A DNA stretch of 64,000 nt from Mytilus edulis (lineage: Eukaryota). Positions 48,001-54,000 of this stretch are shown here, one piece after another. The DNA is taken from NCBI RefSeq assembly GCF_963676685.1, contig NC_092355.1:31744001-31808000 (forward strand), in the 5' to 3' direction. The position numbers are program-made. Position 1 is the stretch's first letter; every line of letters begins with the position of its first letter.

Positions 48001-51000
48001 AAACTGACAACGCCATGGCTAAAAATGAAAAAGACAAACAGAAAAACAATAGTACACATGACACAACATAGGAAACTAAAGAATAAACAACACGAACCCC
48101 ACCAAAAACTAGGGGTGATCTCAGGTGCTCCGGAAGGGTAAGCAGATCCTGCTCCACATGAAGTTGAAATGACAGGACAGTATCGTTTACTTAGAGAATT
48201 GTTTAAATACATGGTCTTAAGGTAGATGGGGTGTCTAAATTATAATCCATAGAATTTTTTGATAATTTGCCAAAATGTAGTTTATAACCTGCTTGTTTCG
48301 AAATATTAATTAAAAGAATGGGTCACCGGACTTATTTTCACACTAAAGGTTGTGCAAAATTATCAGATTTAGTATAGAATATGCATGGGAAACTCAATTT
48401 TCCTCATTAAAACGAAAACTACACCATAGAATTTTTCGATAAAATATGAGAAGATGGCTGCAATATTATTCTTTCAGATAAGAAAAAGAAAAATGGGGGT
48501 CACCGAACTCGTTTTCTTGCTACATAATAAAATGGGTAAATTCCTAACACATTCTATTGTAAAAATAACACAATCTGAATTATCTGCCCTTGCATTTGAG
48601 TTATCGCCCCTTATTTGGCAAAGTTGGAAAAAATTGAATCAAACAAAAGTATTCGGTTAATGGTAAAATACAACCATAAATATGATAAAACATTGTATAT
48701 TCTATATTATAATGAAAAATCTTGCACATGAATTACCTACTTGTCTCAAAATTTGCACATTTTATCAAAGATATAGACCTTGTTTTCTGGTATTTCAAAA
48801 TCCAAGATGGCAGAAGACACCCTATCTACCTTAAAAGTATATTGAGAATGTGATAGGGTTATAGAGGACATTACGATGTGGATATTCAGCAAATAAGGAA
48901 GTCTGTAAAAAAAAAGTTAGCTGAAAAAATACAGGAAAATCATATTTTCTTTTCTTCTTTATATTTCCGGAAGATTTAAAAAAAAACCACACCGGATATT
49001 CCATGAACCTGAGTCTGTCAATATATATGATAAACAGAATAATACATGGCAAAATCCGTATCGCATGTTGTATCACTACTCAACCAATATAAGCCCTCGG
49101 GACCTTCGGCCCTCGGGACTGATATTGGTTTCTCGTGGTGATACAGCATGCGATACGGATTTTGCCATGTATTATTCTCTATATATTGTGTTAAACATTT
49201 TAATATATTGTGCTTAAACATGTTAAAATTAAAAAACAAATTGGGTTATCATTTTGATATATTGTCCTTAACATTTTACAAATAATGTTTTTAATGATGT
49301 TTTATTATGATTTTATAGAAAAAAATATTTGACTTTTATTCATTTTCTTTATAAATAAAACTATTTCTTCATTTCAGTTATTATGTTAATCACTGACATT
49401 TTTTCTAGTGATTATACATAATCCCTGAAAATTTTAGTGATTATATAGAACCCCTAAACTAGCCAGTGATTCTACATAATCCCTGAAAATTTTAGGGATT
49501 CTACATAATCACTGACTATACAAATTAACTGTAGCCCAGGTTGTCATGTGGTCTAGCGGGACGGCTGCAGTGCAGGCGATTTGGTGTCACGATATCACAG
49601 TAGCACAGTAGCATGGGTTCGAATCTTGGCGAGGGAAGAACCAAAAATTTGCAAAAGCAAATTTACAGATCTAACATTGTTGGGTTGATGTTTAGACGAG
49701 TTGTATATATAAATTATGATACACAGTTATTCAATGTTTACTAGTATACTGAATCTTCACTGTAAAACAATGTATATTTTAACTCTTTATGTAGTCTTTT
49801 AAAAACGTACAATATCGAAAGACTTTAGCAGGTTATTTTCCTTTGCTTCGAATCGCTCGCACTTAATTTATGTTGCATTCTATTGTATAATTCATACTCA
49901 TAGCATAATACACATTTTTAGTTTAGAAACAGACTTCTTAGTGAGCCTGATGAGAAAAATTTGATATAAATTGATGTGATAATTGAATGCTTCTTTATGT
50001 CATTGGGTTGTTAAAGCGTTAACCGAAATACATTTTCCATAAGCGCGATAACGCATCATTCTAAAAATGTACGCACGGTCAACGCTTTTACAACCCTATG
50101 AAATTACTTAATGAAGCATTCAATACTTATTATTACATTTTTTTTCGCTATGGTCATGAAAACACTATTCCTATCCTGTTTTCCTTGTATTTGAATATGC
50201 ACTTTATTTTGGAAACGTGTGTCATCATGTATGTTTCAATTCATTTTAAAATGAAAAATGACGCGAGATTGCTGCTGGCCAATCAAAATAACGCATAAGA
50301 ATGAAACATACATCTAATGTAGTTATATTATATTTGAAAAAGAACGTACTGTCCATCCTCCACCGTCTGTATCCATGTCACAATAAGCTTTTACTCCTTC
50401 TGTTTTCGTAGGGAATATTTCGTAGACACCAGAGGTTGCTTTATATTTCTTAATCTCAGCGCAGTCCCTTGCAGACCCTATACATATCCCTGCAATTTAT
50501 ATTCACGACAGTTTTATATATTTGATAGACACAAACATCTCTATTGAACGTAACAATATTTATTTTCATATTTAAATAGTTATCAAAGGTATCAGAATAA
50601 GCAATTGAATAATCTAAATTTTCCTTTTCTGTGTTCTCCAATTTTTTTAACATGCACTGTAATAAAAAAATACATATTGACACAATACATATCAATGTGT
50701 TCTATTTACCTTTGACTTCACGTTTTAACAGCCTGACTATCCTTGAAATTTCCTTTTCGCCACGAGACTCTATAAAATTAATATGCAATTTGTTAGCCAA
50801 ATCTGTTGATTCGTTATTACTTAATTTAAGCATGCTTGTGTATGCCTTTTGTTGAGAAGTAAATTTACATTAACACATTGCATTGCCTTTTTTTTTAACA
50901 AATTCCTGATATAAAGCCTCTACATCAACGACTTGAGTATATCCAGTCCTGTCTACTGAAATGTTTATTTTTTTTTATATTGTTCCCATTGTTGTTACCA

Positions 51001-54000
51001 CAATTCCGTCCTCTTTTCACAACGACGGGAGACACATTTGGAGTTGAATGCTGTGTTGTTAGTCTTATATTTTCTTACTGTGATATTTCCAGTTTGTTTT
51101 ATCTCTGAACTTAAATAGCCTTTTGTGTCATTCGAACCTTCGGGAAAATTGTTTCATTGTCAATGATACCACATCGTCTTCTTTTTATATTTTGGTATCT
51201 TTCCCCTCTGTTGTAAACCATCAACATTTTCTCTAACTTACATTCGCAACTAAATATTAATATGGTGTCTGATGAATAACACTAACACTACCGATTGTTT
51301 ACACCGGATGCTAGCATATAATTTCATAAGATATTAGCTTGAAATTATATGAACACGTCGAAGAGCTGATAAAGCAAATAGGAGAAAACATAATAAGGGA
51401 TGGAGTTGGGATAAAGAAGGCAACATTAGTATACCACTGTTTAATAGTCATCATTTTATTAAGCAAAAACCAGAAAAATGAAAGAAATCATGGCTGTAGG
51501 ATGGAGCTAATCCCAAATTGTTTTTAATAATAAAAATATATTTGTGAAAGTATCGAATGATTTGCTACAAGACTGCTGATACATTTCGGGTTATAATAAA
51601 AATTGTTACTATTTCAGTTAATGGGTAGTCAGTAGTGTTAGTTATAACATTTTTTTCATTAGCCACAGCCTAACACTGTTTCTATTTCTAGTGCAAGAGA
51701 TTTCCTTACGTTTGCTCAGATGTAATATTTCAATTTGTTGATTTACTTTTCCTATGTATAAACCTCTAAGGAAAATATATTGACTTTTCTACATTTGCTT
51801 GTATTATTTTAATTTTAGTTTCTTGTGTATAATTTGGAAATTAGTATTGCGTTCATTATCACTGAACTAGTATATATTTGTTTAGGGGCCAGCTGAAGGA
51901 CGCCTCTGGGTGCGGGAATTTCTCGTTACATTGAAGACCTGTTGGTGACCTTCTGCTGTTGTGTCTTCTATGGTCGGGTTGTTGTCTCTTTGATACATTC
52001 CCCATTTCCATTCTCAATTTTATATGTATATGTAACGCTTACACAATTATACTGACCTTCTAAGATCCATGTTATATCCTTTTTCAACAGTTTGTTCATC
52101 TTTATTACATCTTTATACACGGCAATATCTATTCAAAAGACAGTATTTGAATATAACACAAATACAGTAATCCCTTTTAATCTGATACAATTTGTTTTAC
52201 ATACGTGATTATTAAACTAGGCATTTCCCTACTTGTTATTTATCACGAAAATGGTGAGAATGAGTGATTTTGGTATTCCAAAGTTTTTGTATGGTTGTAT
52301 GTCAAAAAAGCAACTATGCAACCATGGCAAAGGGATCAATTGCAAATCAGGAAGCATCAGAAAAACAATTATAATGTATAACAGTGCTTGTTATAGTTAA
52401 TTTGTAACTTAAGCGCACGTCTTGTGAATACAATTTTAACTCTGGTATGTTTGATGAGTTCGGTATTAACGACTGATTAACACAAAACTGACCACAAATC
52501 GGGCCAAACTCATGTGCTCCAGGGGGTCATTAGTACCTAGTTCAATAATACACTCGTTGTGCTGCTCTGGTTTTAATTTTTTTCATTAGCGGTAAACAGT
52601 TTTAGCCTGCGCTTATGGTGCTACCATCGCTGTCTTTTTTCGGTTGATTTAATGTACATTTGTTTGTAGGTGCCAGTCTATTCAGAAAGACTGCTTGTTT
52701 TCCTTTAAATGCCATGTGTTAATTTTTGTCATTATCTTGCCTATATTTTGATGGTAGCTCAAATTTTATTTTATTGATCCTTTCTCATTTTCAAAATCTT
52801 TTAACTAGGCGTTTTCTACAAGATATTTTAAAAGTAAAAAAAATAAAATCATATACACATGTAAAATTATCATATACTTACTTTTGAGTATAAATTGTGT
52901 ATCTTTCTTCAGTTGTGCAACGTCTCTGTCTTTTTCATGCAAACATATTCCTATAAATAAAAATAGTTATGATGTTTCTGTAAGAAATCAAATTATAGCG
53001 TTTATTTTGTTTTAATTAAAATGTTGGAAACTTAATTTAAATATTTTGAATGTTTTTTTATTTAATGCTTTGTATTTGAGTTTAAACAACCTCCGTTAAT
53101 GGAATGATATTTGTGACAAATTTGTTTAAAGAATAGCTTTTTTATCATATGACACACTTAGTGTAATATATTAATGAAGCAACCTTGAACGCAAGCCTCG
53201 GATATCAGATGGAAAAATTTAAAGCTTAAACACATCATACGAATTGAAAACAACTGTCATACTTCCGACTTGGAACTCAAAATTGAAGAAATAGACCCCC
53301 ACATCTGAACTTATTACATGCATGTCACGATGGATAAATTAAGCGAAAATAATAACATAAAATAATAAAAAAAACTTCTGTTACGCGTTTTAAGATAGAA
53401 GATAAAACATCCGTATAAATGTTCAAAAATAAAGATTAATTTTTAAAAAGAATATTGTTATATTTGTATAGCAAAGGATTTTTTGCATGTGTTATGTTGA
53501 AATATTGTTGAAAAGTGATATTCATCTTGAAATATCTCTTTAGTAGCTTCCTCCTCTCTGATAAGCAGTGGATCATTTAAGAGAAAAAAATCTAAAGCAA
53601 TTTTGTTCAGCCTTCGATAAAATCCGTGATGCAAAAGTTGTACAATAGTTTCACATTTGAACTAGCATAAGAGGATTTCTTGAAAGATGTACAACTAGCT
53701 ATGAATATACAAAAGGAACCGAAAACGGTAATTTTACCTTGTAATTCGTGTAAAATGTCACCAACTCTATTCTTCTCTTCTGATTCTCGATATGTTCTCA
53801 AACCTGAAATTACAATATTTGATAATGTGTTTTAAATTAGGTTATTTTTGCGTGCCATCCATATGCCGTGTCGGAACATTCTTAATCAATCCAAATCAGA
53901 TTCGTATTATCAATGTAACTGTTCAATTTAAATTGTTGTCAATATTTATTTTCCTTCATATTTATACCTATTATTGACCTGTTGCACCTATAAGATATTT

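What the first reader, a model, noticed from the sequence alone, without database searches (positions are those of the whole stretch)
50350..53987. FREP stalk built from a series of symmetric phase-1 mini-exons (a possible splice-tunable lectin)
Seen: between the signal peptide and the FReD domain lie exons of 9, 66, 69, 72, 69 and 60 nt, all multiples of 3 and phase 1-1. The five longer ones each encode one charged, amphipathic, helix-like segment. Two share LKKDxxxIL, and two exons can start GIC, suggesting exon duplication. Established: FReD lectins oligomerise through N-terminal coiled-coil or collagen stalks, and mussel FREPs are a hypervariable immune family. Inference: any subset of these exons can be skipped in frame, giving combinatorial variants in stalk length and cysteine content.
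Basis: partly seen in the sequence, partly recalled or inferred. Interest (0 to 1): 0.7.

Follow-up and report, generated by a model that had tools for sequence, protein, structure and literature searches.

The report
Mussel fibrinogen-type lectin, four-exon helical stalk
This is an ordinary, already annotated type of mussel immune lectin gene whose short helical stalk is encoded by four small in-frame exons, and related gene models drop or double those exons exactly at their borders, but nothing here shows that this gene itself is alternatively spliced.

Summary
The finding lies in a minus-strand Mytilus gene for a secreted fibrinogen-domain (FReD) lectin. It has 9 coding exons and 318 codons, from 56000 to 44439.

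**Confirmed:** four stalk exons of 66, 69, 72 and 60 nt, all AG/GT and phase 1-1. They match the M. galloprovincialis model 'fibrinogen-like protein A' (P0002) at 79-100% per exon.

**Rejected:** None has a counterpart in 123 relatives. The real first exon is 56000-55928, outside the finding.

**Omissions and duplications:** of 56 stalk-bearing relatives, 36 carry all four exons in order. Nine lack internal stalk exons exactly at exon borders, and three have a duplicated exon. The junction residues are those predicted from the window's split codons. One omission model is labelled 'isoform X2'.

**Limits:** no transcript data for this gene could be examined. Omissions could be splicing, genomic exon loss or annotation misses. 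Helicity rests on a low-confidence model, and oligomerisation is inferred.

**Verdict:** a new member of a known kind, of low-to-moderate interest.

The parts
55928..56000 (-). Coding exon 1 (73 nt from the ATG at 56000): hydrophobic signal-peptide-like leader. It ends in phase 1, with donor GT at 55927-55926. It lies outside the finding's coordinates.
   Evidence: tblastn of P0002 residues 1-25 at 100% identity; sequence read; phases.
53738..53803 (-). Stalk exon E66 (66 nt, phase 1-1, AG/GT).
   Evidence: 100% identical to P0002 residues 25-47. Present in 42 of 56 stalk-bearing relatives.
52882..52950 (-). Stalk exon E69 (69 nt, phase 1-1, AG/GT). It starts with G-I-C and carries the only stalk cysteine. 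It is 72 nt (24 codons) in most relatives.
   Evidence: 92% to P0002. The cysteine is invariant in 24 of 24 aligned relatives. Exon alignment.
52057..52128 (-). Stalk exon E72 (72 nt, phase 1-1, AG/GT; donor GTCAGT).
   Evidence: 79% to P0002. Profile similarity to E69: 1 of 1000 column shuffles reaches the observed score.
50710..50769 (-). Stalk exon E60 (60 nt, phase 1-1, AG/GT).
   Evidence: Profile similarity to E72: 3 of 1000 column shuffles reach the observed score.
50350..50489 (-). FReD exon F1 (140 nt, phase 1 to 0). It starts with G-I-C and ends at the GGGWT motif.
   Evidence: PF00147 at 36.4 bits (cut-off 22), profile positions 2-45. 98% identical to P0002.
45894..45990 (-). FReD exon F2 (97 nt, phase 0 to 1).
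   Evidence: PF00147 at 35.3 bits, profile positions 44-79. 100% identical to P0002. Boundaries read.
45194..45358 (-). FReD exon F3 (165 nt, phase 1-1).
   Evidence: PF00147 at 48.6 bits, profile positions 79-132. Boundaries read.
44439..44653 (-). FReD exon F4 (215 nt including the TAG stop). It contains the DRDND stretch and the C-terminal cysteine pair.
   Evidence: PF00147 at 38.5 bits, profile positions 139-186. 87.5% identical to P0002. Boundaries read.
54067..54109 (-). It is not part of the gene and lies in intron 1.
   Evidence: No counterpart in 123 relatives (best score 27; shuffled-query maximum 37). The true exon 1 was found at 56000.
53979..53987 (-). It is not part of the gene and lies in intron 1.
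   Evidence: In all canonical relatives exon 1 joins E66 directly. The junction glycine equals the window's G|GT.
50887..50955 (-). It is not part of the gene and lies in intron 4. It is followed by GC, not GT.
   Evidence: flanks. No counterpart in 123 relatives (best score 31; shuffled-query maximum 39).

Best explanation
The locus is an intact gene for a secreted single-domain fibrinogen-related (FReD) lectin of a Mytilus mussel. It sits in a tandem array with a second copy at the left edge of the window.

Layout of the product:
- a leader exon;
- an approximately 90-residue stalk of four short helices, each encoded by its own symmetric phase-1 exon (66, 69, 72 and 60 nt);
- a C-terminal FReD head encoded by four further exons.

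Two invariant cysteines bracket the last three helices. One is at the start of the 69-nt exon and one at the start of the FReD exon.

The most likely working model is that the stalk brings several FReD heads together. It would do so through helix packing fixed by inter-chain disulfides, giving avidity for acetylated or sugar ligands. This is the role that collagen or coiled-coil stalks play in ficolins, FIBCD1, angiopoietins and snail FREPs.

The 69-, 72- and 60-nt exons probably arose by exon duplication. Because every stalk exon is symmetric, the family has changed stalk length by whole exons (loss, duplication and possibly skipping) without disturbing the reading frame.

Shown: the exon anatomy, the phases, the family membership, and the exon-precise omissions and duplications in relatives' models.

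Inferred: helicity (low-confidence model), oligomerisation, disulfide roles, ligand binding, and whether any omission arises by splicing.
For: Gene anatomy:
- Nine exons, all AG/GT, summing to 957 nt = 318 codons plus stop, the same length as P0002.
- Each of the four FReD exons on its own passes the Pfam PF00147 cut-off, and together they cover profile positions 2-186 in order.
- P0002 ('fibrinogen-like protein A', M. galloprovincialis) matches every exon at 79-100%.
- The closest solved FReD domains are FIBCD1 (E 8e-50) and ficolin-2 and ficolin-1. All PDB matches start at residue 113 or later, so the stalk has no solved relative.
- Pfam finds only PF00147 in P0002.

Family survey:
- 36 of 56 stalk-bearing relatives have the four modules in the same order, and the order is never permuted.
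- C49 and C116 are invariant in 24 of 24 aligned relatives.

Structure and descent:
- An AlphaFold2 model of P0002 gives helices 27-49, 57-69, 71-94 and 98-116, which is one per exon with breaks at or near the exon junctions.
- Column-shuffle tests of profile similarity: E69-E72, 1 of 1000 shuffles reach the observed score; E72-E60, 3 of 1000.
- The in-register diagonal scores (15 and 13) are well above the diagonals offset by +7 or -7 (3, -1, -3, -8).

Literature (passages seen):
- Coiled coils in snail FREP interceding regions are linked to multimerisation (PMC7588048).
- An N-terminal coiled coil is reported in scallop, oyster and prawn FREPs (PMC11741071).
Against: - The AlphaFold2 model is weak. 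Mean pLDDT is 55, and stalk blocks score 35-58.
- Over the continuous 69-72-60 segment the heptad-period hydrophobic moment does not stand out (228 of 2000 shuffles reach it). The 66-nt exon is not amphipathic (910 of 2000). A single long canonical coiled coil is therefore not indicated.
- Exon lengths of 22, 23, 24 and 20 residues are not multiples of seven, so exon removal would shift any heptad register.
- Column shuffling destroys helical periodicity, so part of the exon-exon similarity could be convergence. The offset test argues against this only moderately.
- No experiment or transcript for this gene was available.
Confidence: 0.7

Rival explanations
1. One reading: the four stalk exons are cassette exons of a single gene. 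Regulated alternative splicing produces a set of isoforms (up to 16) that differ in stalk length and in the presence of the stalk cysteine.
For: - All stalk exons are symmetric.
- A RefSeq model labelled 'isoform X2' (P0010, M. californianus) joins the 69-nt-type exon directly to the FReD exon. Its junction residue R is the one predicted from A|GG.
- Many stalk-bearing family models carry isoform labels X1-X5.
- Alternative splicing is reported for snail FREP genes (PMC7588048 and PMC12074976, passages seen).
Against: - The partner isoform of P0010 was not seen. No pair of retrieved proteins at or above 95% identity differs by a stalk exon.
- The one isoform whose difference could be located (P0007, X3) differs inside the FReD domain, not in the stalk.
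- Both stalk-bearing relatives on transcript-sized, intron-free contigs carry all four exons (P0040, 316 aa on 1188 nt; P0046, 314 aa on 1126 nt).
- All splice sites of the window gene are canonical.
Confidence: 0.25
2. The omissions and duplications are fixed differences between paralogous genes (genomic exon loss or gain in an expanding tandem family). Each gene makes one constitutive product, so stalk length is tuned over evolutionary time and not by splicing.
For: - The same omission (E66-E69-F1) occurs in models of two species, M. californianus (P0010) and M. coruscus (P0030).
- The duplicated 66-nt-type exon is seen in two species, and its copies have diverged (P0029, P0031). That requires genomic duplication.
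- The window holds two tandem copies that are 86% identical, including intron and upstream DNA.
- The 69-, 72- and 60-nt exons themselves look like old duplicates.
Against: - P0010 is labelled an isoform, which implies another transcript model of the same gene.
- No genomic DNA of the relatives could be read, because the genome collection on offer holds only bacteria and archaea.
Confidence: 0.4
3. The omission variants are annotation artefacts. Gene predictors miss 60-72-nt exons, and because the exons are symmetric the shortened model still reads through and is kept.
For: - Several omission models are visibly poor. Some are N-terminally truncated or fused to unrelated sequence: P0054 has a long foreign N-terminus, and P0037 and P0047 start inside the stalk.
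- Other family models contain frameshifted tails or skip a FReD exon (P0011, P0019).
- P0137 is fused to ankyrin repeats.
Against: - P0010 and P0030 are otherwise complete, have proper leaders, and come from two independent annotations.
- Every type of omission carries the exact predicted junction residue. This is expected for both real and artefactual exon-precise omissions, so it does not discriminate between them.
Confidence: 0.3
4. The stalk is not an oligomerising coiled coil. It is instead a flexible spacer or an intramolecular helical bundle that positions or masks the FReD head.
For: - There is no significant heptad periodicity over the whole stalk.
- The model confidence is low, with helix breaks at every exon junction.
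Against: - Two invariant unpaired-looking cysteines flank the helices.
- FReD lectins as a class act as oligomers (established knowledge; passages).
Confidence: 0.2

Closest known systems
   Same: - 318 residues and the same nine-exon layout.
- Per-exon identity of 79-100%.
- The same two invariant stalk cysteines.
   Different: The window copy differs most in the 72-nt exon (79%) and the last FReD exon (87.5%). It also has His where 90% or more of relatives have Tyr in the GGYSGDAG stretch. It is therefore a close paralogue or divergent allele, not the identical gene.
Bivalve single-domain FReD lectins with an N-terminal coiled-coil region (as described in PMC8878817 and PMC11741071; passages seen)
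   Same: Signal peptide, then a helical region of variable length, then one fibrinogen domain. An oligomerising role has been proposed for the helical region.
   Different: The passages I saw in those papers describe the protein architecture. Searching two of them for 'exon' gave no hit in PMC11741071 and only unrelated mentions in PMC7588048. Here the stalk is resolved into four symmetric exons, one helix each, with exon-precise gain and loss across paralogues.
Biomphalaria glabrata FREPs (IgSF - interceding region - fibrinogen domain)
   Same: A coiled-coil-prone linker lies upstream of the fibrinogen domain and is tied to multimerisation. Alternative splicing and exon loss are reported as sources of diversity (PMC7588048 and PMC12074976, passages seen). 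From recall only (Zhang and Loker 2003, not seen), the linker is encoded by several small exons.
   Different: There is no IgSF domain here; Pfam finds only PF00147. By the strict definition quoted in PMC8878817 this is therefore not a bona fide FREP but a single-domain FReD protein.
Vertebrate ficolins and FIBCD1
   Same: These are the closest solved FReD heads (FIBCD1 E 8e-50; ficolin-2 E 2e-49). They also combine an N-terminal oligomerising stalk with cysteines and a C-terminal FReD head.
   Different: The ficolin stalk is a collagen triple helix (Gly-X-Y). The mussel stalk has no such repeat, no PF01391 match, and no sequence relative among solved structures.

Membership tests
Fibrinogen-related domain (FReD) proteins, Pfam PF00147 | A match to the Fibrinogen_C profile above the curated cut-off. 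| tested here: met
   Tested exon by exon: 36.4, 35.3, 48.6 and 38.5 bits against a cut-off of 22. The matches cover profile positions 2-45, 44-79, 79-132 and 139-186 in genomic order.
Fibrinogen-related domain (FReD) proteins, Pfam PF00147 | Conserved cysteine pairs and the acidic calcium-site stretch of the domain. | tested here: met
   - C123/C150 and C273/C285 (P0002 numbering) are invariant or nearly so in 24 relatives, and all four are present in the window exons.
- D263 is invariant; D265 and N266 are nearly invariant.
- Assigning these residues to the calcium site is from recall of ficolin and tachylectin-5A structures.
Secreted lectin | An N-terminal signal peptide. | tested here: inconclusive
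   Exon 1 encodes a 24-residue leader with a hydrophobic core that is helical in the model. No signal-peptide predictor was available.
Gastropod FREPs in the strict sense | One or two IgSF domains upstream of the fibrinogen domain. | tested here: not met
   Pfam finds only PF00147 in P0002, P0010 and P0031. The 113 residues before the FReD domain are fully accounted for by the leader plus the four stalk exons.
Ficolins | A collagen-like Gly-X-Y stalk. | tested here: not met
   There is no PF01391 match in P0002 and no Gly-X-Y run in any stalk exon translation.
Coiled-coil oligomerisation stalks (angiopoietin, tenascin, FIBCD1 type) | A continuous heptad pattern of hydrophobic residues. | tested here: inconclusive
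   Single exons E72 and E60 are amphipathic (69 and 88 of 2000 shuffles reach the observed moment). The 58-residue span from E69 to E60 is not periodic at 3.5 residues (228 of 2000).
Coiled-coil oligomerisation stalks (angiopoietin, tenascin, FIBCD1 type) | Self-association of the stalk. | not testable with these tools
   This needs protein biochemistry. See Tried and rejected for the one computational attempt.
Alternatively spliced cassette exons | Symmetric exons, so that inclusion or exclusion keeps the frame. | tested here: met
   All four stalk exons are phase 1-1 and multiples of 3.
Alternatively spliced cassette exons | Two or more transcripts of the same gene that differ by the exon. 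| not testable with these tools
   - No RNA data or eukaryotic genome collection was on hand.
- The look-up that could have shown co-clustered isoforms was switched off.
- The only indirect sign is the 'isoform X2' label of P0010.

The most novel reading that the evidence does not exclude
The four symmetric stalk exons of this Mytilus FReD subfamily are true cassette exons. Haemocytes would then splice each gene into several isoforms with 1-4 stalk helices, with or without the stalk cysteine. This would change oligomer size and reach, and so add a splice-level layer of diversity on top of the many paralogues and presence/absence variants of mussel lectins. It would be a small-scale, stalk-side analogue of Dscam-type diversification.
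Probability: 0.22. Interest if true: 0.55.

Novelty: new member of a known kind. Interest (0 to 1): 0.3.

Why it matters
Bivalves rely on very large, fast-evolving lectin families, and how those families vary valency and geometry is poorly described. If stalk length changes by whole one-helix exons, it offers a simple, testable rule for how oligomer architecture diversifies in an innate immune receptor. That holds whether the change happens over evolutionary time or by splicing.

There is also a practical warning for annotators. Short symmetric exons can be dropped from gene models without breaking the frame. As it stands, the gene is an ordinary, already annotated family member.

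Tried and rejected
The signal peptide at 54109, the 9-nt exon and the second 69-nt exon were checked against 123 relatives and rejected.
- **Stalk self-association.** Complex prediction on three copies of the stalk (P0002 residues 25-122) returned no verdict (score 0.09; mark 0.32). It is reported here only and counts neither for nor against binding.
- **ESM Atlas look-alikes of the stalk.** P0002 residues 25-113 gave no usable hit.
- **Cluster members.** The listing of cluster members, which could have given accessions and co-clustered isoforms, was switched off. 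The question of P0010's partner isoform therefore stayed open. A whole-protein search with P0010 found no near-identical longer form among the 120 hits listed. All-against-all comparison found no pair at or above 95% identity that differs by a stalk exon. The nearest case is P0065 and P0073, which are 93.5% identical and differ by the 69- and 72-nt-type exons.
- **Other domains on the stalk.** I asked whether the stalk is shared with other head domains such as C1q. A phmmer search with the mostly-stalk protein P0011 against 1.84 billion cluster representatives gave 112 hits at E of 0.001 or below. Of the 108 that were new to the session, the 94 of 1300 residues or fewer were examined and 21 had stalk modules. 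None showed a head other than FReD. P0137 has ankyrin repeats upstream of the stalk and looks like a fused model.
- **Literature.** Searches for 'MgFREP' (0 papers) and for 'Mytilus + fibrinogen + exon skipping' (0 papers), and two broader searches, found no description of this exon layout. The library lacks most subscription-journal papers, and supplements were closed.

Full report
**Orientation and gene**

The region is AT-rich metazoan DNA, with GC of 0.22-0.35 across the window. The gene of the finding lies on the minus strand. Reading the reverse complement and computing lengths, phases and flanks gives nine coding exons:

| Exon | Coordinates | Length | Phase |
|---|---|---|---|
| E1 | 56000-55928 | 73 nt from the ATG | 0 to 1 |
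| E66 | 53803-53738 | 66 nt | 1-1 |
| E69 | 52950-52882 | 69 nt | 1-1 |
| E72 | 52128-52057 | 72 nt | 1-1 |
| E60 | 50769-50710 | 60 nt | 1-1 |
| F1 | 50489-50350 | 140 nt | 1 to 0 |
| F2 | 45990-45894 | 97 nt | 0 to 1 |
| F3 | 45358-45194 | 165 nt | 1-1 |
| F4 | 44653-44439 | 215 nt with stop | 1 to end |

- Every intron is GT...AG.
- The lengths sum to 957 nt, which is 318 codons plus a stop.
Each exon was translated and searched on its own. Whole-protein analyses used the database protein P0002 as a stand-in.

**What the gene is**

- Each of the four C-terminal exons alone passes the Pfam Fibrinogen_C cut-off. Together they cover profile positions 2-186 in order.
- A search with F1 alone found 14 proteins at E of 0.001 or below among 16 candidates. 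Thirteen of the 14 carry Mytilus names in the listing.
- The best full match was P0002, 'fibrinogen-like protein A [Mytilus galloprovincialis]', 318 aa, 98% identical over F1.
- tblastn of P0002 against the window places its residues on the nine exons in order:

| Exon | Identity to P0002 |
|---|---|
| E1 | 100% |
| E66 | 100% |
| E69 | 92% |
| E72 | 79% |
| E60 | about 95% |
| F1 | 92% over a 50-residue span that overruns both exon borders; 98% within the exon |
| F2 | 100% |
| F3 | 88% over a span that overruns the exon |
| F4 | 87.5% |

- The window therefore holds a close paralogue or divergent allele of an already annotated mussel gene.
- Pfam sees nothing but PF00147 in P0002.
- The nearest solved structures are FReD heads of FIBCD1, ficolin-2, ficolin-1 and tenascin-R. 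All matches start at residue 113 or later, so the stalk has no solved relative.

- Four of the six reported mini-exons are real, with exactly the stated lengths and phases.
- The second 69-nt exon (about 50955-50887) lies in intron 4 and is followed by GC rather than GT.
- None of the three has a counterpart in the relatives. The two that are long enough to test score at or below shuffled controls against all 123 proteins then in hand.
- By contrast, the true E1 and E60 score 111 and 83 against shuffled maxima of 37 and 48.
- The LKKD...IL motif shared by E69 and E72, and the G-I-C start of E69 and F1, are there.

**The stalk**

- In a 24-sequence alignment, the cysteine of E69 and the first cysteine of F1 are invariant (A1).
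- An AlphaFold2 model of P0002 built on that alignment is of low confidence, with mean pLDDT 55 and stalk blocks at 35-58. It places helices at 27-49, 57-69, 71-94 and 98-116, one per exon, with breaks at or near the junctions.
- Hydrophobic-moment tests, counted as shuffles out of 2000 that reach the observed value:

| Segment | Shuffles reaching the observed moment |
|---|---|
| E72 | 69 |
| E60 | 88 |
| E69 | 239 |
| E66 | 910 |
| E69-E60 span, heptad period | 228 |

- So 'one short helix per exon' is plausible, but 'one long coiled coil' is not indicated.
- Profile-profile scoring of the exon alignments shows E69 similar to E72 (1 of 1000 column shuffles reach the score) and E72 similar to E60 (3 of 1000). 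E66 is similar to none (479-840 of 1000).
- The in-register diagonal is the best one, at 15 and 13. Diagonals shifted by one heptad score -8 to 3. This favours exon duplication over mere helical convergence.
- In most relatives the E69-type exon is 24 codons, the same as E72.

**Variation in relatives**

Three searches collected 123 proteins: F1 alone, the stalk part of P0002, and the whole of P0010.

- The P0002-stalk search gave 30 hits among 99 candidates.
- The P0010 search gave 403 hits at E of 1e-30 or below among 817 candidates, of which 120 were listed.

Scoring each protein for the four modules found 56 of 123 with at least one module:

| Architecture class | Number of 56 |
|---|---|
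| All four modules in order | 36 |
| Start inside the stalk | 8 |
| One module twice | 3 |
| One or more internal modules missing | 9 |

- Duplications: the E66-type module is doubled in P0029 and P0031, and the E72-type in P0006.
- Internal omissions: E66-E69-F1 twice; E72-F1 twice; and E66-E69-E72-F1, E69-E72-F1, E69-F1, E69-E60-F1 and E66-E60-F1 once each.
- The order is never permuted.

A phmmer search of 1.84 billion cluster representatives with the mostly-stalk protein P0011 gave 112 hits, of which 108 were new. Of these, 94 were 1300 residues or fewer and were examined, and 21 had stalk modules. Seven of the 21 show internal omissions, including loss of the E69-type exon alone (P0125, P0133, P0136, P0138, P0140, P0148, P0164). 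I dropped P0132 from that count because its E60-like segment is present but fell under the score threshold.

**Junction residues**

Because the exons are phase 1, the residue at a new junction is fixed by the last base of the upstream exon and the first two bases of the downstream one. The table compares predictions from the window's own bases with what the omission models show:

| Junction | Predicted | Observed |
|---|---|---|
| E69-F1 | A+GG = R | R in 2 of 2 (P0010, P0030) |
| E69-E60 | A+AG = K | K in 2 of 2 (P0059, P0133) |
| E66-E72 | G+AT = D | D in 2 of 2 (P0138, P0164) |
| E72-F1 | G+GG = G | G in 5 of 7 (A in the first unit of P0125, D in P0136) |
| E66-E60 | G+AG = E | E in 1 of 2 (A in P0148) |

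The omissions are therefore exon-precise.

**What this does and does not show**

- It does not show splicing.
- For splicing:
  - P0010 is labelled 'isoform X2'.
  - Many family models carry isoform labels.
- Against splicing, or neutral:
  - No pair of fetched proteins at or above 95% identity differs by a stalk exon.
  - The one isoform whose difference I could locate (P0007, X3) differs inside the FReD domain.
  - The two stalk-bearing relatives on intron-free, transcript-sized contigs both have all four exons (P0040 and P0046).
  - Several omission models are plainly poor annotations.
- Genomic loss or gain certainly occurs. The doubled E66-type exon has diverged copies and is seen in two species.

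**Comparison with what is known**

- PMC11741071 reports N-terminal coiled coils in scallop, oyster and prawn FREPs.
- PMC7588048 links coiled coils in the snail FREP interceding region to multimerisation, and counts 95 proteins from 73 genes through alternative splicing.
- PMC12074976 lists alternative splicing and exon loss among FREP diversification routes.
- That the snail linker is encoded by several small exons is my recollection (Zhang and Loker 2003), not something I saw.
- The present gene lacks IgSF domains and a collagen stalk, so it is neither a strict FREP nor a ficolin. It is a single-domain FReD lectin.
- Searches for 'MgFREP', for 'Mytilus + fibrinogen + exon skipping', and two broader queries found no description of this exon layout. 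The library lacks most subscription papers, and supplements were closed.

**What stayed unchecked**

- No transcript data and no eukaryotic genome collection were available.
- Cluster members could not be listed.
- No signal-peptide or coiled-coil predictor was on hand.
- Nothing in the window looked human.

**Verdict**

The gene is a new member of a known kind.

Noticed in passing
window 5608-5536 (-) and 319-254 (-): A second FReD gene of the same subfamily starts here: a leader exon and an E66-type exon, with the rest running off the left end of the window. It is 86% identical to the studied gene across exons, intron flanks and about 250 bp upstream. That suggests a recent tandem duplication or gene conversion.
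   Followed up: partly
window 1405-4271: A 431-bp satellite in 6.7 copies at 90% match, lying inside intron 1 of the second FReD gene.
   Followed up: no
window 28321-30098: A 30-bp minisatellite in 59.6 copies at 80% match. It coincides with the strongest GC skew in the window (-0.38) and with long repetitive open frames on both strands.
   Followed up: no
window 32772-33929 (+) and 62521-62925 (+): An uninterrupted 386-codon frame matching rhodopsin-family 7TM receptors (PF00001, E 3e-25), and a second, partial 135-codon copy (E 1e-12). They look like intronless GPCR genes flanking the lectin gene.
   Followed up: partly
window 38271-39011 (+): A 247-codon open frame with no Pfam match at E of 0.001 or below. 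By eye it resembles a retroelement polymerase fragment, which is recall and was not tested.
   Followed up: no
window 24195-24506 and 25768-26076: Two copies of the same low-complexity open frame about 1.5 kb apart, on both strands, pointing to a local segmental repeat.
   Followed up: no
window 45194-45358 (-), exon F3: The window copy encodes His where 90% or more of 24 relatives have Tyr in the GGYSGDAG stretch. The exon F3 itself is also a symmetric phase 1-1 exon.
   Followed up: no
relatives P0042, P0048, P0050, P0053, P0139: A longer subfamily (426-432 aa) carries about 130 extra residues with no Pfam match between the leader and the same four stalk modules. The stalk is therefore reused behind another N-terminal region.
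   Followed up: partly
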